The position numbers and the translations under genes are program-made. From an uncultured Alphaproteobacteria bacterium (GTDB lineage Bacteria; Pseudomonadota; Alphaproteobacteria; UBA11222): a stretch of 64,000 nt of DNA. Of the stretch, positions 4,624 to 61,200 are shown in pieces. The stretch covers positions 268,279 through 332,278 of the forward strand of contig CAMYID010000022.1 in the NCBI GenBank assembly GCA_947258435.1, written 5' to 3'. Position 1 is the first letter of the stretch. Each line of letters starts with the position of its first letter. The notes under the pieces were generated by a model, which worked only from the letters and a program-made list of their open reading frames with translations, was not told the origin of the DNA and did not search any database.

Positions 4624-6568
4624 TCCGCTTCCGGTGGTCAGGGTCATCGCCCTGGTGCTGCTGATATGCTGCGCGACCGGGCTTTCGGTTACTTTCAGCC
4701 CGGCCGCCGAAAATGACTATATCGAGCCGCCCTTTTTCGAGCGCGCGCGCGCGGATGGTGTTCTGCCGTCGATTATGGAACGGCTCCCCGACCAGCCGCT
4801 GATTACAGACCCCGCAGCGCAGGGTCTTGAGGCCGGGCAATATGGCGGAACGCTCCGTACCCTGATTACAAAGCCGCGCGATATTCGCTATATGGTGGTG
4901 AATGGCTATGCCCGTCTTGTGGGGCGCAATGCAAGTTTACAGCTATTGCCCGATATTCTGGAAAGTTATGAAGTTGCTGATGAGCGGGTCTTCACCTTCC
5001 ACCTGCGCGCGGGGCATCGCTGGTCCGACGGGCACCCCTTCACGGCGGAAGATTTCCGTTATTACTGGGAAGATGTTGCAAATAACCCCGAGCTCAGCCC
5101 CGCCGGCCCGCCGGCGCTGCTGCTTGCGGGCAAAGCCCTGCCTGAATTTGAGGTCGTCGATTCGCTGACCGTGCGCTATCGCTGGGCCGAACCGAACCCG
5201 GCATTTCTCTCCGCATTGGCGCAGGCGCGGCCGCCCTTTATCTACCGGCCCGCACATTATCTGGGGCAGTTTCATATCCGCTATGCCGATCCCGACCGGC
5301 TGGCCGACGCAATCGCGGCCGAAAAGGTGCGCAACTGGGCGGCGCTCCATAACCGGCGCGACAATATGTATAAATTCGACAATATCGAGATGCCGACTTT
5401 GCAGCCCTGGGTAAACCGCACTGCCTCGCCCGCCGCGCAATATGTGTTTGAGCGCAATCCCTATTATCATCGGGTAGACAGGGCAGGCCGACAGCTGCCC
5501 TATATCGATCGGGTGGTGATGCAGGTCGCCGATGGCCGCCTGATCGCCGCCAAGACCAATGCGGGGGAAAGCGATCTGCAGGCGCGCGGGTTGAGCTTCA
5601 GCGATATTACCGTGCTGCGGCAGGGGGAGGCGCGCAATGATTATCAGACCCGGCTCTGGCCGCTCTCGGCCGGCGCGCATATGGCGCTTTATCCGAATCT
5701 GAATTATGAGCGGCCGGTCTGGCGGACACTGTTCCGCGATGTGCGGTTCCGCCGCGCCTTGTCGCTTGGTATTGACCGGCATCTGATCAATCGTTCGCTG
5801 TTCTTCGGGCTTGCGCTTGAGGGCAACAACATGGTGCTGCCGACCTCGCCGCTGTTTGAACCGGCGCTGCAGACACGCTGGGCGGTGTATAATCGCGCGG
5901 TGGCGAACCGCATGCTCGATGCGCTGGGGCTGACCGCGCGCGACGGGCGCGGCATTCGTCTGCTGCCCGACGGGCAACCCTTGCGTATCATTGTGGAAAC
6001 CGCGGGCGAATCACCCGAGCAGGTCGATATCCTTGAGCTGATCGCCGCGGACTGGAAGACAATCGGCATCGATCTGCTGATCAAGCCCTCGCAGCGGGAA
6101 GTGATGCGCAATCGCGCCTATGCGGGCAAGGCGATGATGACCGTTTGGAGCGGTTTTGACACCGGCATGCCCACCGCCGATATGCCGCCCGATATGCTGG
6201 CACCCATGGCGCAGGACGATCTGCAATGGCCGCGCTGGGGGCAATATTATCAGACCGGCGGCAAGGGGGGTGAACCGCCCGATATGGCCGGGCCAGTCTA
6301 TCTGCTGGCGCTGGCGCAGGAATGGCGCGCGGCGACGATGGATCGCCGCCGCGCGATCTGGCGTGAAATGCTGAACCTGCATGCGGATGCGCAATATACG
6401 ATCGGTGTCATCGCCGGTGTGCAGCAGCCAGTCGTCGTTTCGAACCGGTTGCGCAATGTCCCGCAGATGGCCTTTTACGGGTGGGACCCCGGCGCGCAGT
6501 TCGGCATCTACCGGCCCGACCAGTTCTGGTTCGCCGATGCAGCGGACCAACAGCGGGCGGGAGGGTGA
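4613..6568 (+). CDS. ABC transporter substrate-binding protein, family 5
   Basis: Signal peptide, YGGTLR, FTFHLRAGHRWSDGHPFTAEDF, FERNPYY..VD..G.QLPYIDR and FRRALSLGIDR. Confidence 0.93.
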   Translation: MPYNPLPVVRVIALVLLICCATGLSVTFSPAAENDYIEPPFFERARADGVLPSIMERLPDQPLITDPAAQGLEAGQYGGTLRTLITKPRDIRYMVVNGYARLVGRNASLQLLPDILESYEVADERVFTFHLRAGHRWSDGHPFTAEDFRYYWEDVANNPELSPAGPPALLLAGKALPEFEVVDSLTVRYRWAEPNPAFLSALAQARPPFIYRPAHYLGQFHIRYADPDRLADAIAAEKVRNWAALHNRRDNMYKFDNIEMPTLQPWVNRTASPAAQYVFERNPYYHRVDRAGRQLPYIDRVVMQVADGRLIAAKTNAGESDLQARGLSFSDITVLRQGEARNDYQTRLWPLSAGAHMALYPNLNYERPVWRTLFRDVRFRRALSLGIDRHLINRSLFFGLALEGNNMVLPTSPLFEPALQTRWAVYNRAVANRMLDALGLTARDGRGIRLLPDGQPLRIIVETAGESPEQVDILELIAADWKTIGIDLLIKPSQREVMRNRAYAGKAMMTVWSGFDTGMPTADMPPDMLAPMAQDDLQWPRWGQYYQTGGKGGEPPDMAGPVYLLALAQEWRAATMDRRRAIWREMLNLHADAQYTIGVIAGVQQPVVVSNRLRNVPQMAFYGWDPGAQFGIYRPDQFWFADAADQQRAGG

Positions 6569-26007: not shown

Positions 26008-26346
26008 ATGAAGCCCGGAGAAATCATCTGCGCCGCGGGGGAGATCACGCTTAATGAGGGGCGTGAGACATTGACCCTGCCGGTTGCAAACAGTGGCGAC
26101 AGGCCGGTGCAGGTCGGTTCCCACTATCATTTCCATGAAGCAAATAGCGCCCTTAGCTTTGATCGCGCGGCGGCAAAAGGGTTCCGTCTCGATATTCCGG
26201 CGGGAACCGCGGTGCGGTTCGAGCCGGGTCAAACGCGCGAGGTGCGGCTTGTCGCCTATGCCGGCGCGCGTCGGGTGTTCGGATTTAACGGCGCGGTCAA
26301 CGGCCCGCTGGGAGGGCCCGCCGGGAGGATAGATCATGGCCAATAA
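26008..26346 (+). CDS. ureB: Urease beta subunit
   Basis: [20 protein letters not shown] and [15 protein letters not shown]. Confidence 0.98.
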
Positions 26347-28045
26347 AATCAGCCGCGATGCCTATGCCGCCATGTATGGCCCGACAGTCGGCGACAAGGT
26401 AAGGCTTGCCGATACCGAGCTGTTCATCGAGGTGGAGGAAGACCGCACCATCTATGGCGAGGAGGTGAAGTTCGGCGGTGGCAAGGTGATCCGCGACGGC
26501 ATGGGTCAGTCGCAGGCAAGTCGCGCCGACGGTGCGGTGGATACGGTCATCACCAATGCGCTGATCCTCGATCATTGGGGAATCGTCAAGGCCGATGTCG
26601 GTATTCGCGATGGCCGCATCGCCGGGATCGGCAAGGCGGGTAATCCCGATGTCCAGCCCGGTGTCGATATCGTGATCGGCCCGACGACCGAGGTCATTGC
26701 CGGCGAGGGGCGTATTCTGACCGCCGGCGGGATCGATGTGCATATCCATTTCATCTGCCCGCAGCAGATCGATGACGCGCTCTATAGCGGGGTCACCACC
26801 ATGATGGGCGGCGGTACCGGCCCGGCGGAAGGGACGAATGCCACCACCTGTACCCCTGGCGCGTTTCATATCGGCCGGATGCTGCAGGCTGCCGATGCGC
26901 TGCCGATGAATCTGGGGTTTTTCGGCAAGGGCAATGCGACATCGCCCGTCCCGCTGCATGAACAGATCGCGGCAGGTGCCTGCGGTCTCAAGCTGCACGA
27001 GGATTGGGGCACAACGCCCGCCGCGATCGATAATTGCCTGACGGTTGCCGAAGAAACAGATACTGCTGTCACGATCCATACCGATACGCTGAACGAATCC
27101 GGTTTTGTGGAGAATACGATCGCCGCATTCAAGGGCCGCAATATCCATGCCTTCCATACCGAAGGTGCAGGCGGCGGCCATGCGCCCGACATCATCAAGG
27201 TGTGCGGCGAGGCGAATGTACTGCCATCTTCGACCAACCCGACCCGTCCGTTCACGGTCAATACGATTGACGAACATCTCGATATGCTGATGGTCTGCCA
27301 TCATCTTGACCCCAATATTCCCGAGGATGTGGCCTTTGCCGAAAGCCGCATCCGGCGCGAGACGATTGCCGCTGAAGACATGCTGCACGATCTGGGTGCG
27401 TTCAGCATCATCGCGTCGGACAGTCAGGCAATGGGCCGGGTGGGCGAAGTCATCATCCGCACCTGGCAAACCGCGGACAAGATGCGTCGGCAGCGTGGAC
27501 GTCTGAACGAGGAAGCCGGCGACAACGATAATTTCCGTGTACGGAGGTATATTGCGAAATACACAATCAATCCCGCCCTTGTGCATGGGATTGCGGAATA
27601 TGTCGGCTCGGTCGAGGTTGGGAAATATGCCGACCTTGTCCTCTGGAAGCCCGCCTTTTTCGGGGTGAAGCCCGATCTTGTGCTGAAGGCGGGTACGATT
27701 GCGGCGGCACTGATGGGGGATCCCAATGCGTCGATCCCGACGCCGCAGCCGGTACATTACCGGCCGATGTTCGGCGCGCTTGGTGGCGCTTTGCCCGCAA
27801 GCCGGATGACATTTGTGTCAGAGGCGGCGATGGCAGCCGGGGTTGCCGATCAGCTTGGCCTGACTAGCATTGTATTACCGGTGCGCGATATCCGCCGCAT
27901 CTCCAAGGCGGAAATGATCCTGAACAATGCGACCCCGAAAATGGAGGTCGACCCTGAAACCTATGAAGTGCGCGCCGATGGGCAGGTGCTGACGTGCGAA
28001 CCGGCGGACACGCTGCCGCTGGCACAGCGTTACTTCCTGTTCTGA
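26336..28045 (+). CDS. ureC: Urease alpha subunit
   Basis: [58 protein letters not shown] and LAQRYFLF. Confidence 0.99.
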
Positions 28046-43594: not shown

Positions 43595-44281
43595 ATGTCC
43601 GACAATCGACCTGTTATCGCAATCCTTGGCGGCACCGGGGATTTGGGCGGCGGCCTGGCCTATCGCTGGACGCGCGCCGGCTATCAGGTGATCATCGGCT
43701 CGCGGACCGCTGAAAAGGCCGAGGCCGCGGCCGCATCACTTGCGGTTTCAGGCGATGCCCCGGCTGTCCGCGGTATGGATAATATCGCTGCCGCTCAAGC
43801 CTGCGATATCGCTGTGCTGACGGTGCCGTTCGCCAATCAGAAAACGACCCTTGAAGCCGTGGGCGAGCGATTGCGCGACAAGATCCTTGTCGATGTGACC
43901 GTACCGCTGATCCCGCCCAAGGTGGCACGCGTGCAATTACCGCCCGAGGGTTCGGCCGGGCTGGCCGCGCAGGCAATATTGGGGGAAGCGGTGACGGTCG
44001 TTTCCGCCTTCCAGAATGTCGGGGCAAGCCATCTGCGCGAGGATCATCCGGTCGATTGCGATGTGCTTGTCAGCGGCGACAAGGTTGCCGCGCGCGAGCA
44101 GGTGATTGCGCTTGTGGAAGCGGCCGGCATGCGCGGCTGGCATGCGGGGCCGCTTGCCAACAGCGTCGCGGCGGAAGCGCTGACCTCGGTTCTGATCGGT
44201 ATCAACAAGCGCTACCGGATCGACGGGGCGGGGATCCGCATTACCGGCACTCCGGGCAATCCGACAGGCAAAACCGGTTGA
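43595..44281 (+). CDS. npdG: NADPH-dependent F420 reductase (Fno/NpdG)
   Basis: GGTGDLGGGLA, IGSR..EKA, VLTVP, VVSAFQNVGA and E.LTSVLI.IN..Y. First gene of the cof cluster. Confidence 0.93.
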   Translation: MSDNRPVIAILGGTGDLGGGLAYRWTRAGYQVIIGSRTAEKAEAAAASLAVSGDAPAVRGMDNIAAAQACDIAVLTVPFANQKTTLEAVGERLRDKILVDVTVPLIPPKVARVQLPPEGSAGLAAQAILGEAVTVVSAFQNVGASHLREDHPVDCDVLVSGDKVAAREQVIALVEAAGMRGWHAGPLANSVAAEALTSVLIGINKRYRIDGAGIRITGTPGNPTGKTG

Positions 44282-44297
44282 GCCGACGCAGGACACG

Positions 44298-45071
44298 ATG
44301 ACCGCTGCCCTTTCCCTGACCGGCCTGCCGGCCATACCGCTGATTGCGCCGGGTGACGACCTTACCGCTATTCTGGGCGGGGGGATGGAGGCCGCCGGGC
44401 TCAGCTTCGCACCCGGCGATGTGCTTGTGCTTGCGCAGAAGGTCGTTTCCAAAGCAGAAGACCGCTATGTGGATCTGGCCACGGTCGCGCCTTCACCGCG
44501 CGCTGAGGAACTGGCTGCGGCGGTGAACAAGGACCCCCGCCTTGTCGAGCTTGTCCTGCGCGAATCGACCGAGATTGTGCGCCACCGGCCCGGCGTGCTG
44601 ATCGTGGCGCACCGGATCGGTGTGGTGATGGCGAATGCCGGTATCGATCAGTCCAATATCGCCCACCCTGAGGGTACCGAGCAGGTGCTGCTGTTACCCG
44701 AAGACCCGGATGCGTCGGCTGGGCGGTTGCGTCGCGAAATCGCTATGCGTTTCGGGGTGGAAATTGCGGTGGTGATCTGCGACAGCGTTGGCCGGGCGTG
44801 GCGCAACGGTACGGTGGGAATCGCAATCGGCGCGGCGGGGCTTGCCTCGCTGATCGATCTGCGCGGTCAGCGGGATCTGTTCGGGCGCGTGCTCGAGGTC
44901 TCGGAAGTCGGCACCGCTGATGCCATCGCTTCAGCGGCCGGGCTGTTGATGGGGGAAGGGGCGGAAGGGGTGCCGGCTGTGCTGATGCGCGGTTTCGTGC
45001 CGCCCCGTGCTGTCCCCGCGCGTGAGGCGGCCGCGCTTGTCCGCGACAAGCAGATCGATATGTTCCGGTGA
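44298..45071 (+). CDS. cofE: Coenzyme F420-0:L-glutamate ligase, single-domain
   Basis: [53 protein letters not shown] and MGEG.EG.P. Confidence 0.95.
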
Positions 45072-45078
45072 GCATGCG

Positions 45079-46104
45079 ATGACCGACCGGCAGCCAGATA
45101 AAGATCCGCGCATTGGCAAGCGTGATGACAATGCCGTGCAGTTTCCCCGACTGCGCTGCGTTGCCTTATGCGGTGGCGTTGGCGGCGCGAAACTGGCGGT
45201 GGGCCTTGAAGCGCAGCTTTCGCCCGCCAATCTGACGGTTATCACCAATACCGGCGATGATTTCACCCATCTGGGCCTGCATATTTCACCCGATCTCGAC
45301 ACGGTGATGTACAGCCTTGCGGGGCTGGCCAATCGGGAAACCGGCTGGGGGCGTGACGGGGAAAGCTGGCGTTTTATGTCCGCCCTCGCAGCGCTTGGCG
45401 GTGAGGACTGGTTTCAGCTTGGCGATCTCGATCTAGCGACCCATATCGAACGCAGCCGGCGGCTGGCGGCCGGGGAAAGCCTGTCCGCCATTACCCAGGC
45501 ACTTGCCGGCCGGCTTGGGGTGCGCCCCGCCATCGTGCCGATGTGCGATGCACCGGTACGGACGATCGTCGACACCCCCGACGGGCCGCTTGCCTTCCAG
45601 CATTATTTCGTGCGCGATAAATGCGCGCGCCCCGTGACCGGTTTCCGTTTCGCAGGCGCCGACACTGCACAACCCGCCAGCTCCGCGCGTGCCGCGCTTG
45701 CTGACCCTGCGCTCGATGCGATAATCATCTGCCCCTCCAACCCGTTTGTCAGTATCGACCCGATACTGGCCGTGCCGGGCATGCGGGAGGCGATCGCGCG
45801 GGCCCATGCGCCGGTGATCGCGGTTTCCCCCATCGTGAGGGGGCAGGCCATCAAGGGGCCGACCGCGAAGATGATGCGCGAGCTTGGCGTGCCGGGGGAA
45901 GCGGTCGCCATTGCCGATCATTACGGAGATCTGCTCGACGGGTTTATCCTTGATGCCGCCGATCGCGCGCTTGCCGACCGGATCGAAGACAGGGGGCTTG
46001 CCTGCCTTGTGACCGATACGGTGATGACCGGCCAAGAAGAAAAGGTGGAACTTGCCCGCGCTGTGCTACAGTTTGTGCAACAGTTGCAACAAAAAGCGAC
46101 GTAA
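45079..46104 (+). CDS. cofD: 2-phospho-L-lactate transferase
   Basis: LCGGVGGAKL, NTGDD, HISPDLDT, WFQLGD.DLATH, FQHYFV and PSNP.VSI.PI. Confidence 0.96.
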   Translation: MTDRQPDKDPRIGKRDDNAVQFPRLRCVALCGGVGGAKLAVGLEAQLSPANLTVITNTGDDFTHLGLHISPDLDTVMYSLAGLANRETGWGRDGESWRFMSALAALGGEDWFQLGDLDLATHIERSRRLAAGESLSAITQALAGRLGVRPAIVPMCDAPVRTIVDTPDGPLAFQHYFVRDKCARPVTGFRFAGADTAQPASSARAALADPALDAIIICPSNPFVSIDPILAVPGMREAIARAHAPVIAVSPIVRGQAIKGPTAKMMRELGVPGEAVAIADHYGDLLDGFILDAADRALADRIEDRGLACLVTDTVMTGQEEKVELARAVLQFVQQLQQKAT

Positions 46105-46211
46105 AGCTACACATTGCGACAGGGCTGTCCTATCGTCGCGCGACAATGATAACCAGGTGGAATAACTGACCGGGACAGACAACCGGCAACCGGTTTGACA
46201 GGGAAGAGACC

Positions 46212-46895
46212 ATGTGGGCGATTGTGCCCGTCAAGCGCTTAGGGGAAGCAAAGCAACGCCTGTCCGCGCGGCTGAGCGCCGGGCAGCGCGCCGCGCTTGG
46301 TCTTGCCATGCTGGAAGATGTGCTGGCAGCGCTTGTCGGGGTGGCGGCAATCGAAGGGATCTTGCTCGTTTCTCCCGATCGGCGCGCCCATGCGCTGGGT
46401 CGCCGGTTCGGCGCGCGCATTCTGGCGGAAGCGGACGATCACGGCCTTAACCCGGCCGTGCAATGCGCGGCGTCATTGCTGAAATCCGAAGGGGTTGCGC
46501 AAATCCTTGTGCTGCATGGGGATTTGCCGCTTGTGACGCGCGACGAGATCGCGCAACTGATCGCGGCGCACCGCTCTTCCCCCGGCCTGACCATTGCCCC
46601 TGACCGGGAGGGGCGCGGCACCAATGCAATGATCTGCACGCCCCCCGATCTTATCGCATTCCACTATGGCCCCGACAGCGTGCGGGCCCATTGCGCGGCG
46701 GCGGAGCGGGCGGGCATTGTGCCGACCCTGTTGCGCGCGCCCGGGCTTGGTTTCGATATCGATGAGATCGACGATCTGCTGGCCTTGCAGGCGCAGCCGG
46801 CGACAACCCGGACCCATGACTGGCTGTCCGGGCAGGCGTTTGCCGCCTCTGCATGCCGGGATAGTTGCGCACCGGAAAAGGCAGGGGTCCGGTGA
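46212..46895 (+). CDS. cofC: 2-phospho-L-lactate/PEP guanylyltransferase
   Basis: IVPVK.L..AKQRL, GLN.AV, HGDLP, PDREGRGTNA, FHYGPDS...H and DID..DDL. Confidence 0.95.
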   Translation: MWAIVPVKRLGEAKQRLSARLSAGQRAALGLAMLEDVLAALVGVAAIEGILLVSPDRRAHALGRRFGARILAEADDHGLNPAVQCAASLLKSEGVAQILVLHGDLPLVTRDEIAQLIAAHRSSPGLTIAPDREGRGTNAMICTPPDLIAFHYGPDSVRAHCAAAERAGIVPTLLRAPGLGFDIDEIDDLLALQAQPATTRTHDWLSGQAFAASACRDSCAPEKAGVR

Positions 46896-49360
46896 TGCGT
46901 GCGGTGACAAGCCTTGACGATATTCTTGCCGCGGCGCTGAATGGCGTCCGCCCCGAAGGGGAAGGCACAAGCCTGCTCGCAGGGGCGACAGATCTGCCCC
47001 GGCTGATGGCGGTGGCGGCTCGGTTGCGCGATCACGGTCATCGCAATCTTGTCAGCTATTCGCGCAAGGTGTTTATCCCGCTCACCCATCTGTGCCGCGA
47101 TGTCTGCCATTACTGCACCTTCGCCGAACCGCCGCGTAAGGGGGAACCCGCCTATCTCACCCCCGAGCAGGTGCTTGCCATTGCGCGGCAGGGAGAGCGG
47201 GCGGGCTGCCGCGAGGCGCTGTTCACCCTTGGCGACAAGCCCGAGCTGCGGTACCGCGCCGCGCGTGAGGCGCTTGCTGAACTCGGGTTTGACAGCACAC
47301 TTGGCTATCTGCAGGCGATGGCCAGGCTTGTGGCCGAAGAGACGACGCTGCTGCCGCATCTCAATCCCGGTCTGATGTCGGATGAGGATCTGGCGGCGCT
47401 GCGTCCGGTGGCGGCTTCCATGGGGATTATGCTTGAAAGTGCGGCCCCGCGGCTTTGCGAAAAGGGCATGCCGCATTACGGTTCACCCGACAAGGCACCC
47501 GCGCCGCGGCTGGCTGCGATCGCGCGTGCGGGCGCGGCGGCTGTACCCTTCACCAGCGGTATTCTGATCGGGATCGGCGAAACCCGCGCGGAACGGGTGG
47601 ACTCGCTTCTGGCCCTTCGCGATCTGCATGACACGCACGGGCATCTGCAGGAAATCATTGTGCAGAATTTCCGTGCCAAACCCGCCACCAAAATGGCCGC
47701 GGCACCCGAGCCAGATCTTGAGGAGCTGTTATGGACGATCGCGGTGGCGCGCATCCTGTTCGGCGCGGCGATGAATATTCAGGCGCCCCCCAACCTCAGT
47801 CCCGGCGTTCTGCCCAAACTGATCGATGCCGGGATCAATGATTGGGGCGGTGTGTCGCCGGTCACCCCTGATTTCGTCAACCCCGAGGCGCCCTGGCCGC
47901 ATCTTGAAGAGCTGGCGCGCGAAACTGCGGCTGCCGGCAAGCTGCTTGTCGAGCGGCTGACGGTCTATCCGGACTTCGCCCGCGCGGCCGGACACTGGAC
48001 CGATCCGGCGATGCGGCCTGCCCTGCTGCGCGCGATGGATGGTGAGGGTCTTGCACGCACCGAAAGCTGGTCGCCGGGAGGGGAGGCAGTGCCGCCCGCC
48101 GATACGCTTGCCTGGCTTGAGCCGGCGTTGTGTGGCCCGGTGCCCGATGCGTTGGCCGTTATTCTTGGCCGCGCCGAACAGGGAGCCGATCTCAGCGAAG
48201 CCGAGATCGTGCGGCTGTTTCAGGCGCGGGGAGCGGAATTTTCCGCCGTTTGCGCAGCGGCGGACCGGCTGCGTGCGCAAAGCTGCGGCGAGACGGTCAG
48301 CTATGTAGTCAACCGCAATATCAACTATACCAATGTCTGCTATTTCAAATGTCAGTTCTGCGCGTTCTCCAAGGGCAAGCTGAGCGAAAATCTGCGCGGC
48401 AAGCCCTATGATCTGGGGCTTGAGGAGATTGTCCGCCGGGCAGAGGAGGCCTGGGCGCGCGGCGCGAGCGAAGTCTGCATGCAGGGGGGTATTCACCCCG
48501 ATTATACAGGGCAGACCTATCTTGATATCTGTCGCGCAGTAAAAGCAGCCTTGCCCGATATGCATGTCCATGCCTTTTCCCCGCTTGAAATCTGGCAGGG
48601 GGCGGCAACGCTTGGTCTGTCGCTTGAGGCGTTTTTGTCGGCGCTGAAGCAAGCCGGGCTTGGTACCCTGCCCGGTACGGCGGCCGAAATACTCGATGAT
48701 GAGGTCAGGGCGGTGATCTGCCCCGATAAACTGAAAAGCGATGAATGGCTGGCGGTGATGGCGGCTGCCCACAAGGTCGGTTTCAGAACCACGGCCACGA
48801 TCATGTACGGGCATGTGGAAGGCGCTGAACATTGGGCGCGGCATCTGCGCAGGATTCGTGACTTGCAGAAGAAGACCGGCGGTTTTACCGAATTCGTGCC
48901 GTTGCCTTTCGTGCATATGGAAGCCCCCATCTATCTCAAGGGCCGCGCGCGGCAGGGCCCGACATTCCGCGAGGCGGTGCTGATGCATGCAGTGGCGCGG
49001 CTTGTGCTGCATCCGCATATCCCCAACATTCAGGCAAGCTGGGTCAAGATGGGGCGCGAAGGTGTGCTTGCCTGTCTTGCGGCGGGTGTGAACGATCTTG
49101 GCGGCACGCTGATGAACGAGACGATCACCCGCGCGGCAGGTGCCACCCATGGTCAGGAAATGGCTCCCGAGGCGATGGAAACGCTGATCCGGGCTGCGGG
49201 CCGTACCCCGCGCCAGCGCCGCACCGATTATGGGGAAATTGCGCCATCGCGGGTCGCAGCCTCATTTGCGGCGGCCCCGTTAAGTCCGCTTGTCAATGCA
49301 CCGGCGGGCAAGTTCGCGCGCACCGGCGGGCAATCGGGCGAACCTGGCGGGACGAATTGA
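46895..49360 (+). CDS. fbiC: Bifunctional FO synthase (CofG-CofH fusion, two radical-SAM domains)
   Basis: Two CX3CX2C motifs (CRDVCHYC, CYFKCQFC), IQAPPNL, GINDWGGVSP.T.D.VNPE and NDLGGTLMNETI. Confidence 0.97.
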   Translation: MRAVTSLDDILAAALNGVRPEGEGTSLLAGATDLPRLMAVAARLRDHGHRNLVSYSRKVFIPLTHLCRDVCHYCTFAEPPRKGEPAYLTPEQVLAIARQGERAGCREALFTLGDKPELRYRAAREALAELGFDSTLGYLQAMARLVAEETTLLPHLNPGLMSDEDLAALRPVAASMGIMLESAAPRLCEKGMPHYGSPDKAPAPRLAAIARAGAAAVPFTSGILIGIGETRAERVDSLLALRDLHDTHGHLQEIIVQNFRAKPATKMAAAPEPDLEELLWTIAVARILFGAAMNIQAPPNLSPGVLPKLIDAGINDWGGVSPVTPDFVNPEAPWPHLEELARETAAAGKLLVERLTVYPDFARAAGHWTDPAMRPALLRAMDGEGLARTESWSPGGEAVPPADTLAWLEPALCGPVPDALAVILGRAEQGADLSEAEIVRLFQARGAEFSAVCAAADRLRAQSCGETVSYVVNRNINYTNVCYFKCQFCAFSKGKLSENLRGKPYDLGLEEIVRRAEEAWARGASEVCMQGGIHPDYTGQTYLDICRAVKAALPDMHVHAFSPLEIWQGAATLGLSLEAFLSALKQAGLGTLPGTAAEILDDEVRAVICPDKLKSDEWLAVMAAAHKVGFRTTATIMYGHVEGAEHWARHLRRIRDLQKKTGGFTEFVPLPFVHMEAPIYLKGRARQGPTFREAVLMHAVARLVLHPHIPNIQASWVKMGREGVLACLAAGVNDLGGTLMNETITRAAGATHGQEMAPEAMETLIRAAGRTPRQRRTDYGEIAPSRVAASFAAAPLSPLVNAPAGKFARTGGQSGEPGGTN

Positions 49361-56763: not shown

Positions 56764-57222
56764 CTAGCTGCGGGGCCGCACGATCCGGCAGGTCGCCGTG
56801 CCATAGACGCAAATCCTGCCATCGGGATCGACAATGCTACCGTCGGTGATAACGGTCCGGCCCTGGGTGTCGATGACCTTGCCATGGGCAACATAGACAG
56901 TGCCATCCGCCTTCATCGCGCGCAGATATTTGATATTCAGATCGATGGTGGTGAACACCTCTTCTTCGGCAAGCGTGCTGATCAGCGCCCAGCCCATCAC
57001 CCCGTCAAGCACGGTCGCGCCATAGCCGCCATGCACATTGAAGGAGGGGTTGCGGTGTTTTTCACCCGGATGGCAAAGCAGCCTTGCCCAGCCCCGGTCG
57101 AAAGCGTCCAGTTCGACATCCATCAGATCGGTCATCGACTGCACATTGCTGCGCTTTTCCTGCATTAGCTTCAGGCGGGTCATGCCGTCGGGCATGCCGC
57201 GTTTTTTCTTCTGTTCCGGCAT
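56764..57222 (-). CDS. PaaI family thioesterase
   Basis: NPSFNVHGGY.ATVLD, TIDLNIKYLRA and hot-dog strand pattern. Start is uncertain (57183-57252). Confidence 0.85.
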   Translation of the reverse strand: MPEQKKKRGMPDGMTRLKLMQEKRSNVQSMTDLMDVELDAFDRGWARLLCHPGEKHRNPSFNVHGGYGATVLDGVMGWALISTLAEEEVFTTIDLNIKYLRAMKADGTVYVAHGKVIDTQGRTVITDGSIVDPDGRICVYGTATCRIVRPRS

Positions 57223-57285
57223 GCGCTTGTGCTGCCCCTTTTCTGTTTGCATGACCGCGCGCGGGCAGCGCAAATCAGGCGAAGC

Positions 57286-58716
57286 TCAGATCAGTTCGCG
57301 CACGCTGCCCGAGGCGGAGATATGCCCTTCTGTATAGCGTTCGTGATTTTTTTCAATATCGCCGAGCTTATAAAGATAGTTGACCATCATGCCATGCGAC
57401 TGGCGGATGCCGTTCTTCGAGCGGTCGCCCAGGAAATTAAGCCGTTCGACCCGTGCGCCATTGGTCAGGTGGAAATGCGCCACCGGATCGCGCGCTGTCC
57501 CGCTATCGCGCCGCGCTTCCAGCAGGTAGCGCGCGCCAAGCCGGGTCAATACCGGTTGCAGCAGGGCGGTCAGTTCCGCATCCTGCCACCAGTCGGGTGT
57601 TTCGAGCAGCGCAATCAGCGCGGCTTCAGCGGTGGGCGCGCCCGATTTTGCCCTTAGCGCCAATGCGTCCGGCGCGGGCAACATGGCGGTGCTGTCGCCG
57701 CTCTTGAGTGCATTGTCAAGCCAGGCTGCAAATCCGGGCATGGGCGACAGGGTGGCAAAGGTTTTCAACCGCGGCAATTTGGTTTTCAGATCATTGACAA
57801 CATGCTTGATCAGGAATTCACCGAACCCGACCCCCGCAAGCCCTTTCTGGGCGTTCGAAATTGAATAAAAGATCGCGGTGTCGGCCTCTTCCGGTGCCGT
57901 GGCCGGGGCTTTTTCATCAAGCAATTCCTGCACATTGCCGGCAATGCCGCTGACAAGCGCAACCTCGACAAAGATCAGCGGCTCATCGGGCATGGCGGGA
58001 TGAAAAAAGCCATAGCAGCGCCGATCCGAATCGAGACGGTTTTTCAGATCGCTCCAGGATTTGATTGCATGCACAGCCTCATAGGCGATGAGCTTTTCAA
58101 GCAAGGCGGCGGGCGCTCCCCAGTCGATCGCATGCAGTTCAAGAAAGCCCGCATCGAACCAGGACGCCAGCAATTCACGCAGCTCCTGATCAAGCGGCCC
58201 GAGCCGGGGTGTGTCACGCTTGAAGCGCAGGATGTCGGCGCGCAGATCGACAAGGAACTTCACCCCCTGGGCGATGCCGTTAAACTGCCGCAGCAGCCCG
58301 ATACGCGGTGATTCGAGCATTTGCCGCAAATGCCGTTCGGCCGCCGCCAGCGCCTCCGGATCCTGCAGCTCGAACAGCGGTTTCGCCGCCTGCCGCACCG
58401 CCATATGATCAATGCCATAGTCATCTGCCAGCAAGGTCAGAAAACGTTTGCGCCCCTTATCGCTCAGGCTCAGATAGGTGCGCCCGATCTCTGTCGCCTG
58501 ATTGCGCGCGGCAACTTCGCCGCCCCGGGCTTCCAGACAGCGATCGATCTGCTGTCGCAGGCGGATCAGGTCTTCTTCGGGCAGATCAGGGCGGAGCTGG
58601 CTGCCGATGCGGGCTAATGTTGCACCGCGCAGATCGCGCAGCGCCCGGACAATGCGGCTGCCAGTCCGACTGAAAAGCCGTGAGTCCTGATCTGCCGGTG
58701 CCGGTACTATTTCCAC
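57286..58716 (-). CDS. Malonyl-CoA decarboxylase
   Basis: SWFDAGFL.L..IDW..PA..LEKLI.YEAVH, DL..RL..DRRCY.FFHP, FYSISN.Q.GL.GV.FG, TLSP.PGF and DPVAHFHL.NGA. GTG start with AGGAG RBS. Confidence 0.95.
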   Translation of the reverse strand: MEIVPAPADQDSRLFSRTGSRIVRALRDLRGATLARIGSQLRPDLPEEDLIRLRQQIDRCLEARGGEVAARNQATEIGRTYLSLSDKGRKRFLTLLADDYGIDHMAVRQAAKPLFELQDPEALAAAERHLRQMLESPRIGLLRQFNGIAQGVKFLVDLRADILRFKRDTPRLGPLDQELRELLASWFDAGFLELHAIDWGAPAALLEKLIAYEAVHAIKSWSDLKNRLDSDRRCYGFFHPAMPDEPLIFVEVALVSGIAGNVQELLDEKAPATAPEEADTAIFYSISNAQKGLAGVGFGEFLIKHVVNDLKTKLPRLKTFATLSPMPGFAAWLDNALKSGDSTAMLPAPDALALRAKSGAPTAEAALIALLETPDWWQDAELTALLQPVLTRLGARYLLEARRDSGTARDPVAHFHLTNGARVERLNFLGDRSKNGIRQSHGMMVNYLYKLGDIEKNHERYTEGHISASGSVRELI

Positions 58717-58846: not shown

Positions 58847-58867
58847 AAAAAGCCAAGCAAAAAAGCC
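58844..58867. repeat. 11-bp direct repeat, period 13, intergenic
   Basis: GCAAAAAAGCC at 58844-58854 and 58857-58867. Confidence 0.8.
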
Positions 58868-58915
58868 CGGCGGCAGTTGGGAATCTTTTGTGTCGGATGA
58901 GTAACGCCGGCCCGC

Positions 58916-59116
58916 CTAGGCGATAATATCGGGATAAATCAAATCTTCGATCCGGGCGATTTCATCGCGCAGCCGCAGCTTTTTCTTCTTCAGCCGCTGC
59001 AATTGCAGCCGGTCGCCGGCCGGATTCTCCTGCAATGCCGAAATAGCGGCATCAAGATCCCTGTGTTCCTGCCGCAATTCATGCAACTGGGCGCGCAGGC
59101 TTTCGGTATCTGGCAT
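58916..59116 (-). CDS. YdcH/DUF465 family small coiled-coil protein
   Basis: L.ELRQEHRDLDAAI, LQLQRLKKKKL.LRDEI and YPDIIA end. Start moved to 59116. Confidence 0.92.
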   Translation of the reverse strand: MPDTESLRAQLHELRQEHRDLDAAISALQENPAGDRLQLQRLKKKKLRLRDEIARIEDLIYPDIIA

Positions 59117-59257
59117 AAAGGGACCGTGGGGACAGCTTTGTGACGAAACGCCAGGCACTATAGCACAGCCTGATGCGGCTGCTATCGCCGACTGCCCGGT
59201 GGCGCGCAGAAATCCGGCGGCGTCCCCGCATCGGTGGGCACGGCACGGCGCGCGCGA

Positions 59258-60046
59258 TCAGCGCAGACCGATATCCTCCCCCCAGCGTTGCAGACCGGCG
59301 GTTTCAAGGTCGAACAGATCAAGTACCCGCCCCAGCCCGTGATCGACCATTTCCTCGAGCGATTTGGGGCGTGGATAGAAAGCAGGCATGGGCGGTGCGA
59401 TGATCGCGCCCAAATCCGACAGCTGCGCCATAGTGCGCAAATGTCCGCCATGCAGCGGCGATTCGCGCACCATCAGTACCAGGCGGCGACGTTCCTTGAG
59501 AACCACATCAGCCGCGCGCGTGAGGAGGTTTGAGGTGGCGCCACTGGCGATTTCCGACATGCTGCGGATCGAACAGGGGGCGATAATCATGCCCATGGTT
59601 TTGAACGAACCGCTGGCAATGGCGGCGGCCACATCGTTGATATGATAGTATTTGTCAGCCTGGGCGGCAATCTCGCGCGGTTTGTAATCGGTTTCCTGCG
59701 TCATGGCGATTTCCGCCGCGCGGCTCATCACCAGATGACTTTCTATTTCCAGTTCTTTCAATAATTCCAGAAGACTGACGCCATATTCCACCCCAGTTGC
59801 GCCGCTGATACCGACGATGAGGCGGCGGGTGCGGCCCGGCTCCAGCGCAAGGCCCGCCTGCCTTAGCACAGCACTTACCGGTACTTGCAGGATTCGCGCG
59901 AACGGTTCCACCCATTCGAGATTGAGCGCCTGCCGGCCGCGGATCACCCGGCTGATCACCGCCCGGTCGCGACCGATCGCTTTCGCCAGATCTTCCTGAG
60001 TGGCGCCGACACGTTTGAGATTTTCTCTAAACCATTCCTCATTCAT
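59258..60046 (-). CDS. ubiX: XRE/Cro-type HTH domain fused to UbiX flavin prenyltransferase
   Basis: Residues about 1-66 are HTH-like (TQEDLAKAIGRDRAVISRVIRG). Residues from about 75 are UbiX (LIVGISGATG, IASGS, IAPCS, LLTRAADV.LKERR.LVL..RESPL, PPMPAFY). No stop between the two. Confidence 0.9.
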   Translation of the reverse strand: MNEEWFRENLKRVGATQEDLAKAIGRDRAVISRVIRGRQALNLEWVEPFARILQVPVSAVLRQAGLALEPGRTRRLIVGISGATGVEYGVSLLELLKELEIESHLVMSRAAEIAMTQETDYKPREIAAQADKYYHINDVAAAIASGSFKTMGMIIAPCSIRSMSEIASGATSNLLTRAADVVLKERRRLVLMVRESPLHGGHLRTMAQLSDLGAIIAPPMPAFYPRPKSLEEMVDHGLGRVLDLFDLETAGLQRWGEDIGLR

Positions 60047-60052
60047 GTGAGG

Positions 60053-60081
60053 AATGTGTGATGAATTGGCACTTGCGTCAA
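60053..60081 (-). promoter_or_regulatory. Putative sigma70 promoter giving a leaderless HTH-ubiX transcript
   Basis: Minus strand TTGACG (60081-60076)-N17-CACATT (60058-60053) puts +1 at about 60046, the A of the ATG. No Shine-Dalgarno upstream. Confidence 0.4.
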
Positions 60082-60153
60082 TATGTAAGGGCTGACAGAC
60101 CGGAAATTGCATGCTCTAATATGACCTCCCGATGACCGTTGAAGGAGGTAACG

Positions 60154-60336
60154 ATGCACCCTGAAGCGCAACTTGAAGCACTTCGCGTGGAACATGATCG
60201 GCTCGACGACGTAATCAAGCGGGAGGCGCGCCGACCGGGCACGGATGATTTGCATCTGGCGGAGCTGAAGCGCGAAAAACTGCGCTTGAAGGAAGCAATC
60301 CTTGAAATGCAGAAGGGGTCTGTCACCATCAATTAG
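60154..60336 (+). CDS. YdcH/DUF465 family small coiled-coil protein (second paralog)
   Basis: AAGGAGG RBS, LEAL..EH.RLD..I.RE..RP..D and L.ELKREKLRLKEAI. Confidence 0.9.
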   Translation: MHPEAQLEALRVEHDRLDDVIKREARRPGTDDLHLAELKREKLRLKEAILEMQKGSVTIN

Positions 60337-60366
60337 CTAACGGTCGGGCGGTGCCTGCTGCGGACA

Positions 60367-61200
60367 TTAGGCAGCCTGTTTGCGGGCCACGCAAATCAGA
60401 TAGGGCGATGTGATCCGGTTGGGTCCGCGGCGCAGAAGCGCAAGACCCAGGCGGAGCGGCAGTGTCATTGCGATTTTGAGCGCTTGTGCGGGACGTGCAC
60501 CCAGCAGCTCTTCGATCCGTCCCAGATGCAATACCCCAAGATGGGCGGGAAGCACGTAATCGCATGACACTATCGTCAGCCCCGCCTGCGCATGCGCACG
60601 CGTGAGCATCGCCTGATCGAGGGGAATATGCTTGGCATAAAGCCCGGGGTTGAACCATTTTTGCAGTCGGCCGAGCGGACCTGTCATATTCGGTACAAGG
60701 GTGATCATCAGCCCGCCGGGCGCCAGGAAGGTGGCGCAGGCCGTGCAGGCGGCGGCTGTATCGGCAAAATGTTCAACCAGTCCGTTGCTCCACAGAATAT
60801 CAAATCGGTTGGACAGTTCTTCGGGCGGTGCGAACATATCGGCGCGAAAAATTTCGCCGGGCACGGCAAGATCTGTCAGCAATTGCCGCGCGCTCGCACA
60901 GCCTTGTGCGGAGTAATCGAGCCCGCTCACCGCAAAACCGAATTGCTGGTGAAAATAGGCAAGCCAGCGTGAGGCACCGCAGCCGATTTCGATGAAGTTC
61001 GGTCCCGGTGGCGGGTTTTCTGCAAGAGTATGGGTAAAAAAGGCATGCAGGGCGCGGTTGACATAATTGCGCGGCCCCCCCGCGCGGGGATCGATCGGCC
61101 GGAATGTGCCTGCGCCTGCCCACACCCTGTCCCAATAGGCGCGGTCAGTGATGGCCCCCGCGCGGCTTTCCGGGGGGTGTTGTGTTTGGCTGTCGGGCAT
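60367..61200 (-). CDS. Class I SAM-dependent methyltransferase
   Basis: FIEIGCG, GLDYS..G, FDILWSNGLVEHF and LAPGG.MITLVPN. Confidence 0.9.
   Translation of the reverse strand: MPDSQTQHPPESRAGAITDRAYWDRVWAGAGTFRPIDPRAGGPRNYVNRALHAFFTHTLAENPPPGPNFIEIGCGASRWLAYFHQQFGFAVSGLDYSAQGCASARQLLTDLAVPGEIFRADMFAPPEELSNRFDILWSNGLVEHFADTAAACTACATFLAPGGLMITLVPNMTGPLGRLQKWFNPGLYAKHIPLDQAMLTRAHAQAGLTIVSCDYVLPAHLGVLHLGRIEELLGARPAQALKIAMTLPLRLGLALLRRGPNRITSPYLICVARKQAA

What the first reader, a model, noticed from the sequence alone, without database searches (positions are those of the whole stretch)
59258..60046. Phage-repressor-like HTH fused in frame to an intact UbiX flavin prenyltransferase
Seen: one uninterrupted 262-aa ORF. 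About 66 N-terminal residues read as an XRE/Cro HTH (MNEEWFRENLKRVGATQEDLAKAIGRDRAVISRVIRGRQALNLEWVEPFARILQVPVSAVLRQAG), followed by a short linker and a full UbiX with the RESPL and PAFY motifs. There is no SD-supported internal start at the junction. Established: UbiX makes prenylated FMN for UbiD-family decarboxylases, is usually a stand-alone protein of about 190-200 aa, and assembles into a dodecamer. Inference: this could be a trigger enzyme or one-component regulator whose FMN/DMAP occupancy controls DNA binding, with up to 12 HTHs displayed per oligomer. It would link flavin/isoprenoid status to transcription, for example of ubiquinone genes. I know of no described HTH-UbiX, but cannot search to confirm novelty. 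No ubiD is present in the window.
Basis: partly seen in the sequence, partly recalled or inferred. Interest (0 to 1): 0.85.

Follow-up and report, generated by a model that had tools for sequence, protein, structure and literature searches.

The report
Phage-type repressor domain fused to UbiX
A small clade of uncultured marine and freshwater Alphaproteobacteria has its housekeeping flavin prenyltransferase (UbiX) permanently fused to a DNA-binding domain of the phage CI/XRE type; the protein probably represses its own leaderless promoter, and the architecture is real and conserved but does not appear in the searchable literature.

Summary
Window 59258-60046 (-) is one 262-aa ORF with three parts:
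- An N-terminal XRE/lambda-repressor-like HTH. It scores above Pfam gathering thresholds and models as five helices at pLDDT 93.
- A variable Gly/Pro/Ala linker.
- A complete UbiX with invariant catalytic residues.

It is not an assembly artefact. Independent contigs cross the junction without indels. About 33 protein clusters (58-96 % identity) and 13 species-level MAGs carry the same fusion in the same syntenic slot. An exhaustive HMMER search puts all of them in a single 50 %-identity cluster, which points to one origin.

The nearest relatives of the HTH are CI/LexA-type repressors (HTH plus an S24-like C-terminal domain), so in the fusion UbiX takes the place of the oligomerisation domain.

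Upstream there is a conserved TTGACA-N16/17-CATAAT promoter that ends 6 nt before the ATG, with no Shine-Dalgarno sequence. This predicts a leaderless mRNA. A conserved palindrome overlaps the promoter.

Best reading: a working UbiX enzyme that also represses its own promoter.

I found no further operator copies nearby. No paper describing this architecture was found. I rate it a new variant of the known bifunctional enzyme-repressor kind, of moderate to high interest.

The parts
59258..60046 (-). HTH-UbiX coding sequence (262 aa plus stop)
   Evidence: The family alignment starts at this Met.
59858..60046 (-). XRE/lambda-repressor-like HTH domain, residues 1-63 (five helices; recognition-helix motif GRDRAV[IV]SR)
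   Evidence: Pfam HTH_31 and HTH_3 above their cut-offs. AF2 pLDDT 92.7. Foldseek matches to XRE-type domains. 21 of 68 columns are invariant among 18 fused members. Substitutions fall at third codon positions.
59825..59857 (-). Flexible linker, residues 64-74; variable in length (about 6-20 aa) and sequence across the family
   Evidence: Alignment A1 has no conserved columns here. pLDDT drops to about 61-66.
59261..59824 (-). UbiX flavin prenyltransferase domain, residues 75-262; E118, E195, Y224 and W255 correspond to PaUbiX E49, E140, Y169 and W200
   Evidence: NCBIfam NF004685 249 bits. PDB PAD1 6qlg 4e-58 and UbiX 6m8t 1e-51. Residues mapped through the primers and text of PMC6541611. All four are invariant in A1.
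60076..60081 (-). -35-like box TTGACG of the HTH-ubiX promoter (TTGACA in most relatives; TTGAC invariant)
   Evidence: Alignment A3. Promoter scans of L009 and L016 score 11/12 and 10/12.
60053..60058 (-). -10-like box CACATT (CATAAT in most relatives), ending 6 nt before the ATG, with no SD; predicts a leaderless mRNA
   Evidence: The window's own boxes score only 8/12 and fail the simple scan.
60033..60056 (.). Perfect 9-nt inverted repeat CATTCCTCA-N6-TGAGGAATG spanning the -10 box, the predicted transcription start and the start codon; candidate operator
   Evidence: Its core CCTCA-N6-TGAGG is unique in the 64 kb. In the majority clade the palindrome is TGAG-N5-CTCA, in the promoter spacer.
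60092..60120 (+). Divergent DUF465 promoter: CTGACA (60092-60097), 17 nt, TCTAAT (60115-60120)
   Evidence: Conserved blocks in A3. Metatranscriptome contig ends lie at 60127 and 60130.
60154..60336 (+). Divergent DUF465 gene (start ATG 60154, preceded by AAGGAGGT)
   Evidence: Pfam DUF465 51 bits. Same arrangement in L001, L003 and in Parvibaculum L005. Transcribed in relatives.
58916..59158 (-). Downstream DUF465 gene (likely start ATG 59116), possibly co-transcribed with HTH-ubiX; terminator-like hairpin at 58852-58871
   Evidence: Pfam DUF465 62.6 bits. Terminator scan. Synteny in L003.

Best explanation
This is a genuine bifunctional protein that arose once.

Ancestry: in an ancestor of this clade of uncultured Alphaproteobacteria, the DNA-binding domain of a CI/LexA-type (XRE) repressor was joined by a flexible linker to the N-terminus of the housekeeping ubiX gene. 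The join happened in ubiX's ancestral slot between two DUF465 genes.

Enzyme part: the UbiX part still makes prenylated FMN for UbiD-type decarboxylases.

DNA-binding part: CI-type N-terminal domains bind DNA well only when held together by an oligomerising partner. Here the UbiX oligomer replaces the lost S24-like domain. It presents pairs of HTHs that bind a palindrome overlapping the gene's own promoter.

Promoter: it ends 6 nt before the ATG and has no Shine-Dalgarno sequence, so the mRNA is probably leaderless.

Net effect: negative autoregulation of UbiX dosage, and possibly an effect on the back-to-back DUF465 promoter.

Shown: the fusion, its conservation, purifying selection on both domains, intact catalytic residues, the kinship of the HTH, and the conserved promoter and palindrome.

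Inferred: DNA binding, autorepression, oligomer-dependent activity and the leaderless start.
For: - Conservation: about 33 clusters at 58-96 % identity share HTH + Flavoprotein, and 13 species-level MAGs of 185,579 genomes carry the fusion.
- Single origin: in 1.84 billion representatives, the fusion family is the only hit with E-value at or below 1e-30, as one cluster (P0005, 128 bits; next best 87 bits).
- Orthologous slot: the order rpe, methyltransferase, DUF465 (divergent), HTH-ubiX, DUF465, MCD, pabCAB is kept at 63 % identity. Stand-alone ubiX of Parvibaculum has the same DUF465 neighbours.
- Selection on the HTH: 21 of 68 columns are invariant while the linker is variable. 18 of 22 listed X1 differences and 6 of 6 X2/X3 differences inside the HTH fall at codon position 3.
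- HTH fold.
- HTH kinship: relatives in L019-L021 share GRDRAVVSRI and have the architecture HTH + S24-like. 26 of the 101 nearest relatives carry Peptidase_S24, and no enzyme domain is among the 25 commonest of the 42 Pfam families matched.
- Catalytic residues are invariant.
- N-terminal extensions of 25-38 residues occur in crystallised UbiX/PAD1, including a 12-chain entry.
- Promoter and operator: the blocks TTGAC, TGAG, CTCA, CATAAT and ATG are conserved although the proteins are only about 60 % identical. TGAG-N5-CTCA lies at the same promoter position in 7 distinct fusion loci, once per locus. The other fetched loci (about 800 kb) hold 8 matches, about 1 per 100 kb. The window has a perfect 9-nt inverted repeat over the -10 box and the ATG.
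- Relatives' half-sites: the CI-like relatives' intergenic regions carry CTCAC-N6-GTGAG, which shares the CTCA/TGAG half-site.
Against: - There is no experimental DNA-binding or transcription-start data.
- No RNA contig covers the gene.
- The window clade's promoter boxes are weak (8/12).
- Its palindrome differs in position and orientation from the majority clade's, so 'the operator' is not one conserved element.
- Part of the window palindrome is coding sequence (MNEEW) and could be partly coincidental. About 0.015 such repeats are expected in a region of this size; this is my own estimate.
- The half-site geometry also differs from that of the CI-like relatives.
- The full-length AF2 model is poor for the UbiX part (pLDDT 64), and no oligomer model was possible.
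- Whether the genome has a second ubiX, or a ubiD, is unknown.
Confidence: 0.55

Rival explanations
1. Ligand-gated one-component regulator. Occupancy of the UbiX site by FMN or DMAP(P) changes DNA binding, so that the protein reports flavin and isoprenoid status and controls a regulon such as the ubiquinone genes.
For: Enzyme and DNA-binding domain sit in one chain, as in known trigger enzymes. The locus lies near pabABC and, in relatives, a COQ9-like gene. The HTH is strongly conserved.
Against: No second copy of the candidate operator exists in the 64-kb window or in the 12-20 kb fusion loci. The linker is variable and apparently flexible, which argues against tight allosteric coupling. Nothing here bears on ligand dependence.
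Confidence: 0.15
2. Domesticated prophage repressor for superinfection immunity. The HTH, displayed on an abundant host oligomer, binds operators of related temperate phages and blocks their lytic genes. Its effect on ubiX itself is incidental.
For: The nearest HTH relatives are CI/LexA-type repressors with a divergent small gene, an arrangement like an immunity region. One of them (L021) lies in the same MAG as a fusion (L010). The recognition-helix motif is shared, and so are the CTCA/TGAG half-sites.
Against: The HTH and a cis palindrome in its own promoter have been kept over deep divergence (58 % identity), whereas phage immunity specificities usually turn over fast. The L019-L021 neighbours have no PHROG hits, so their prophage status is unproven. 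Half-site spacing and orientation differ.
Confidence: 0.1
3. The HTH no longer binds specific DNA. It serves as a relic that only supplies the translation start, as a nucleoid or protein tether, or as a solubility or assembly tag.
For: No direct evidence of DNA binding. The putative operator differs between sub-clades.
Against: Helix 2 and helix 3 residues are near-invariant, with third-position substitution bias. A relic would decay, as the linker has. Palindromes are conserved in the promoter.
Confidence: 0.1
4. Artefact: an assembly chimera, a frameshift error that joins two genes, or two separately translated products.
For: Gene callers disagree on the start (262 vs 284 aa). GTG at Val60 is a possible internal start.
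Against: Independent contigs from other runs cross the junction without indels. Dozens of diverged homologues keep the frame. There is no conserved internal start codon or SD.
Confidence: 0.02

Closest known systems
Stand-alone UbiX/PAD1 flavin prenyltransferases (PaUbiX, EcUbiX, O157 Pad1, A. niger PAD1)
   Same: Full-length homology: 68-71 % identity to alphaproteobacterial UbiX and 4e-58 to PAD1 6qlg. E49, E140, Y169 and W200 equivalents are conserved. The gene sits in the same genomic slot as Parvibaculum ubiX.
   Different: It carries a 63-residue DNA-binding domain plus linker at the N-terminus. Position 181 is His as in O157 UbiX, not Phe as in PaUbiX. It has Thr in GISGATG where its nearest stand-alone relatives have Ser.
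CI/LexA-type repressors (XRE HTH + S24 peptidase-like domain), such as the Oceaniglobus proteins in L019/L020 and, structurally, lambda cI and P22 c2
   Same: The HTH is 41-46 % identical and shares the GRDRAVVSRI motif. It has the same five-helix fold. It sits next to a divergent promoter region that holds palindromes with CTCA/TGAG half-sites.
   Different: There is no S24 domain, so no RecA-triggered self-cleavage. UbiX occupies that place. The divergent neighbour is DUF465, not a Cro-like gene. Palindrome spacing differs.
Bifunctional enzyme-repressors ('trigger enzymes'): BirA, NadR, PutA (named from my own knowledge, not tested here)
   Same: A metabolic enzyme with an N-terminal DNA-binding domain in one polypeptide, with a plausible operator at its own promoter.
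   Different: The DNA-binding domain is of a different type (XRE rather than winged helix or ribbon-helix-helix), and so are the enzyme and pathway. Ligand control is undemonstrated. Distribution is limited to one uncultured clade.
Laboratory lambda-cI N-terminal-domain fusions used as oligomerisation reporters (from my own knowledge)
   Same: A CI-type DNA-binding domain that depends on whatever oligomerising partner is fused C-terminally. This makes the inferred mechanism physically plausible.
   Different: This case is natural and conserved, and the partner is a large homo-oligomeric enzyme rather than a test peptide.

Membership tests
UbiX family flavin prenyltransferase | Sequence membership: Pfam Flavoprotein PF02441 and the NCBIfam UbiX models above their curated cut-offs | tested here: met
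   PF02441 137.5 bits vs 22.7. NF004685 248.9 vs 188 and TIGR00421 233.5 vs 108.9.
UbiX family flavin prenyltransferase | Catalytic and phosphate-site residues equivalent to PaUbiX E49, E140, Y169 and W200 | tested here: met
   E118, E195, Y224 and W255, mapped through the primers and text of PMC6541611. All are invariant in A1.
UbiX family flavin prenyltransferase | prFMN synthesis; FMN binding; dodecameric assembly | not testable with these tools
   Only homology to dodecameric crystal forms, such as 6qlv with 12 chains. No oligomer modelling was available.
UbiX family flavin prenyltransferase | A partner UbiD-family decarboxylase in the same genome | not tested
   None in the 64-kb window.
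XRE / lambda-repressor-like HTH DNA-binding domain | Pfam HTH_3 and HTH_31 above their gathering scores | tested here: met
   HTH_31 33.2 vs 27 and HTH_3 24.2 vs 23 in the full protein; 36.6 and 27.8 for the isolated domain.
XRE / lambda-repressor-like HTH DNA-binding domain | Five-helix globular fold | tested here: met
   AF2 pLDDT 92.7 with helices 3-13, 17-23, 28-35, 43-53 and 57-63. All top Foldseek matches are XRE-type domains, TM 0.6-0.74, although E-values are only 3e-3 or weaker for this short query.
XRE / lambda-repressor-like HTH DNA-binding domain | Sequence-specific DNA binding | not testable with these tools
   Indirect only: conserved palindromes in the protein's own promoter.
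CI/LexA-type repressor | C-terminal S24 peptidase-like oligomerisation and self-cleavage domain | tested here: not met
   The C-terminal part is UbiX. S24 is present in 26 of the 101 nearest HTH relatives. The protein is therefore related to this family, not a member.
Bifunctional enzyme-repressor (trigger enzyme) | Enzyme domain and DNA-binding domain in one conserved polypeptide | tested here: met
Bifunctional enzyme-repressor (trigger enzyme) | An operator at a regulated promoter | tested here: inconclusive
   The palindrome is conserved in the majority clade. The window clade has a different, perfect 9-nt inverted repeat. Binding is untested.
Bifunctional enzyme-repressor (trigger enzyme) | DNA binding modulated by the enzyme's substrate or product | not testable with these tools
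   No data.
Leaderless mRNA | -10 box 5-8 nt from the start codon, with no Shine-Dalgarno sequence | tested here: met
   In L009 and L016 the -10 box ends at 5994 and the ATG is at 6001. In the window the -10 box ends at 60053 and the ATG is at 60046, with no SD. The geometry is conserved in A3.
Leaderless mRNA | Mapped transcription start at the A of the AUG | tested here: inconclusive
   The metatranscriptome contigs found cover only the divergent DUF465 gene.

The most novel reading that the evidence does not exclude
HTH-UbiX would be the first flavin-prenylation trigger enzyme. The assembly state or the FMN/DMAP(P)/prFMN occupancy of the UbiX oligomer would gate a multivalent array of CI-type HTHs. 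Transcription of its own gene, the flanking DUF465 genes and possibly distant ubiquinone or UbiD-type genes would then track cofactor supply.
Probability: 0.15. Interest if true: 0.8.

Novelty: new variant of a known kind. Interest (0 to 1): 0.6.

Why it matters
How cells control the supply of prenylated FMN is little understood. That cofactor is required by all UbiD-type decarboxylases, including the one in ubiquinone biosynthesis. A UbiX that carries its own DNA-binding domain would be a natural entry point to that question.

It would also be a clear example of a host enzyme capturing a phage-type repressor domain, with the enzyme's oligomer standing in for the repressor's lost oligomerisation domain.

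Practically, public records name these proteins only 'UbiX family flavin prenyltransferase', so the regulatory half is invisible in current annotation.

The narrow distribution limits the reach of the finding: 13 of 185,579 species genomes, all uncultured.

Tried and rejected
1. The word-indexed homology search with the HTH-only profile A4 returned a single irrelevant hit. I replaced it with the exhaustive HMMER search.
2. The Python sandbox was lost. No dN/dS, motif statistics or phylogeny could be computed, so I used codon-position counts and alignment columns instead.
3. The simple promoter scan does not call the window's own promoter (8/12). The call rests on homologous positions in relatives.
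4. I compared upstream DNA of the closest stand-alone ubiX genes (L022-L026) to decide whether the promoter is ancestral or arrived with the HTH. Those genes sit in a different context, so the comparison was uninformative.
5. I considered that the promoter was captured together with a leaderless cI. The CI-like loci L019-L021 do not show the same -35/-10/ATG geometry, so I do not claim this.
6. I considered the 284-aa start at 60112 and rejected it.
7. I considered an internal start at GTG Val60. It is not conserved.
8. The neighbours of L020 have no PHROG hits, so I call L019-L021 'CI/LexA-type' rather than proven prophage genes.
9. Literature searches for UbiX with HTH, XRE, DNA-binding domain or fusion found nothing relevant. 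One search failed on syntax.

Full report
**1. The observation**

- The minus strand of the window carries an uninterrupted ORF, 59258-60112.
- Pfam scores residues 8-58 as HTH_31 (33.2 bits, cut-off 27) and HTH_3 (24.2 bits, cut-off 23). It scores residues 75-241 as Flavoprotein (137.5 bits).
- NCBIfam places the C-terminal 190 residues in the UbiX subfamily: NF004685 at 248.9 bits against a cut-off of 188, and TIGR00421 at 233.5 against 108.9.
- The closest solved structures are PAD1 6qlg (4e-58) and UbiX 6m8t (1e-51).
- Modelled alone with seven family members, the N-terminal 68 residues reach pLDDT 92.7 as five helices. All top Foldseek matches are XRE-type DNA-binding domains at TM 0.6-0.74: RM controller proteins, DdrO, ClgR, SinR, lambda cI and P22 c2.
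- The full-length model is confident for the HTH (pLDDT 84-91). It dips at the linker and is poor for UbiX because the alignment is shallow.

**2. Not an artefact; the true start**

- Contigs from unrelated public runs lie across the junction with no indel or joint. A 7.9-kb contig at about 93 % identity covers 59258-60200, and a 99 % contig covers 59734-59901.
- In the same output, 18 of 22 listed differences of run X1 within 59903-60037 fall on codon position 3 of this frame. So do all 6 differences of runs X2 and X3 there.
- Upstream of 60046 the differences are clustered and non-periodic.
- Family members start at the Met of 60046, and the stretch 60047-60112 holds conserved promoter boxes.
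- The 284-aa form is therefore a gene-caller extension.
- The only in-frame start-type codon near the junction is GTG at Val60. It is not conserved and has no clear SD.

**3. The fusion is a conserved family with one origin**

- The protein search found about 33 clusters (58-96 % identity, 259-284 aa) with the same two domains. Below them come stand-alone ~198-aa UbiX proteins of Kiloniellaceae, Pelagibius and Parvibaculum, at 66-71 % identity over the UbiX part.
- A scan of one genome per species (185,579 species) with an N-terminal-only profile found the full fusion in 13 loci. All are uncultured Alphaproteobacteria or Pseudomonadota MAGs. Their sources include beach sand, marine sediment and deep Lake Baikal.
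- An exhaustive HMMER search of 1.84 billion representatives with the HTH profile gave 1,661 hits. Only one scored with E-value at or below 1e-30: the single 50 % cluster that represents the whole fusion family (128 bits). The next best scored 87 bits.
- Within the family the HTH has 21 invariant columns out of 68. The linker varies from about 6 to 20 residues and has no conserved column.

**4. It is the housekeeping ubiX**

- At 63 % identity (Baikal MAG, L003) the gene order is preserved: rpe, methyltransferase, DUF465 (divergent), HTH-ubiX, DUF465, malonyl-CoA decarboxylase, pabC/A/B, and a COQ9-like gene. This matches the window.
- Parvibaculum's stand-alone ubiX has the same divergent DUF465 gene upstream and a DUF465 gene downstream. 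The HTH was therefore added in place.
- The catalytic residues defined for PaUbiX are E49 (proton abstraction), E140, Y169 and W200. Through the published primers and text (PMC6541611) they map to E118, E195, Y224 and W255, all invariant in alignment A1.
- Position 181 is His, as in O157 UbiX, which uses both DMAP and DMAPP.
- No UbiD is encoded in the window.

**5. Where the HTH came from**

- The genome scan also returned three HTH-only matches at 41-46 % identity: two in Oceaniglobus, and one (L021) in a MAG that also carries the fusion (L010).
- The two complete ones (L019, L020) are ~204-aa proteins. They share the motif GRDRAVVSRI and have a LexA/CI-like C-terminal part; in one this is a borderline Peptidase_S24 hit, 21.7 bits against 23.3.
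- L021 shares the same motif but runs off the end of its contig.
- Each of the three lies next to a divergent small gene.
- Of the 101 nearest HTH relatives in the exhaustive search, 26 carry Peptidase_S24. No enzyme domain is among the 25 commonest of the 42 Pfam families they matched.
- PHROG matches of the HTH are to phage repressors and regulators, but they are weak. The neighbours of L020 have no PHROG hits, so prophage status is not proven.
- Conclusion: the HTH belongs to the CI/LexA-type repressor lineage, and in the fusion UbiX occupies the place of the oligomerisation and self-cleavage domain.

**6. The promoter region**

- I aligned 14 fusion loci upstream of the ATG. Several blocks are conserved although the proteins are only about 60 % identical.
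  - An invariant TTGAC(A).
  - 16-17 nt downstream, CATAAT (CACATT in the window clade).
  - Then exactly 6 nt, then the ATG, with no SD.
- The consensus scan scores this promoter 11/12 in L009 and 10/12 in L016, with the -10 box ending at 5994 and the ATG at 6001. This geometry predicts a leaderless mRNA.
- Window coordinates: -35 box 60081-60076, -10 box 60058-60053, ATG 60046. These boxes score only 8/12 and fail the scan.
- A palindrome, TGAG-N5-CTCA (often TGAGA-N3-TCTCA), lies in the spacer and overlaps the -10 box. It sits at the identical position in 7 distinct fusion loci and is the only copy in each. The other fetched loci (about 800 kb) hold 8 matches, about 1 per 100 kb.
- The window clade lacks that palindrome. 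Instead it has a perfect 9-nt inverted repeat, CATTCCTCA-N6-TGAGGAATG (60033-60056), across the -10 box, the predicted start and the ATG. Its core is unique in the 64 kb.
- The intergenic regions of the CI-like relatives carry CTCAC-N6-GTGAG palindromes. The CTCA/TGAG half-site is shared, but spacing and orientation differ.
- On the other strand, CTGACA (60092-60097), 17 nt and TCTAAT (60115-60120) form the divergent DUF465 promoter. Metatranscriptome contigs of close relatives begin at 60127 and 60130, as this promoter predicts, and cover only DUF465.

**7. Mechanism**

- Best-supported reading: an active UbiX whose oligomer presents CI-type HTHs in pairs to a palindrome on its own leaderless promoter, giving negative autoregulation.
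- N-terminal extensions and tags of 25-38 residues are tolerated in crystallised UbiX/PAD1, including a 12-chain entry.
- From general knowledge, CI N-terminal domains regain repression when fused to any oligomerising partner.
- Shown: the architecture, its conservation, selection on both domains, the kinship of the HTH and the cis elements.
- Inferred: DNA binding, repression, the leaderless start and the dependence on the oligomer.
Each is listed with its evidence in the rival explanations.

**8. Novelty**

- Public records name these proteins only 'UbiX family flavin prenyltransferase'.
- Full-text searches for UbiX with helix-turn-helix, fusion, XRE or DNA-binding domain found no description.
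- It is a new variant of the known kind 'enzyme with a built-in repressor domain' (BirA, NadR, PutA; named from my own knowledge). The enzyme, the type of DNA-binding domain and its apparent phage-type ancestry are new.
- Distribution is narrow and all carriers are uncultured, which limits the impact.

Noticed in passing
window 60127-60400 (+): The divergent DUF465 gene is transcribed in marine-sediment metatranscriptomes of close relatives (90-97 % identity). Contig 5' ends at 60127 and 60130 lie 7-10 nt after a TCTAAT box. No RNA contig covers HTH-ubiX.
   Followed up: partly
window 58916-59158 (-) and 60154-60336 (+); L001, L003, L005: Two DUF465 (YdcH-like) genes flank ubiX on both sides, in the fused clade and also around Parvibaculum's stand-alone ubiX. 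This conserved ubiX-DUF465 association has no known meaning.
   Followed up: partly
window 43595-49360 (+): An apparent coenzyme F420 biosynthesis cluster in an alphaproteobacterium: an F420-dependent NADP oxidoreductase, CofD, CofC and a fused 831-aa CofG/CofH (FbiC-like) radical-SAM protein.
   Followed up: no
window 26492-26777 (-): Rfam 5_ureB_sRNA hit (119.9 bits), antisense to the 5' part of the urease alpha-subunit gene (26336-28045, +). It probably reflects conserved coding sequence rather than a real sRNA.
   Followed up: no
L006 337-654 and L007 4107-4424: Two contigs of one MAG (CALAQW01) each carry the fusion gene with identical upstream DNA. This is either bin redundancy or strain mixture, or a real duplication.
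   Followed up: no
L021 5574-6265 and L010 (same MAG, CAMTWQ01): A MAG with HTH-UbiX also holds a CI-like repressor with the same GRDRAVVSRI recognition motif, next to a divergent small gene. Cross-talk between the two is conceivable.
   Followed up: partly
window 59339-59341 (His236 of HTH-UbiX): The residue aligned with PaUbiX F181 is His, nearly invariant in the family, as in O157 UbiX, which accepts both DMAP and DMAPP. This hints at prenyl-donor preference.
   Followed up: partly
window 56764-57273 (-) and 57286-58716 (-): A 4HBT-fold thioesterase and a malonyl-CoA decarboxylase lie directly downstream of the ubiX-DUF465 unit. The malonyl-CoA decarboxylase is syntenic in L003.
   Followed up: no
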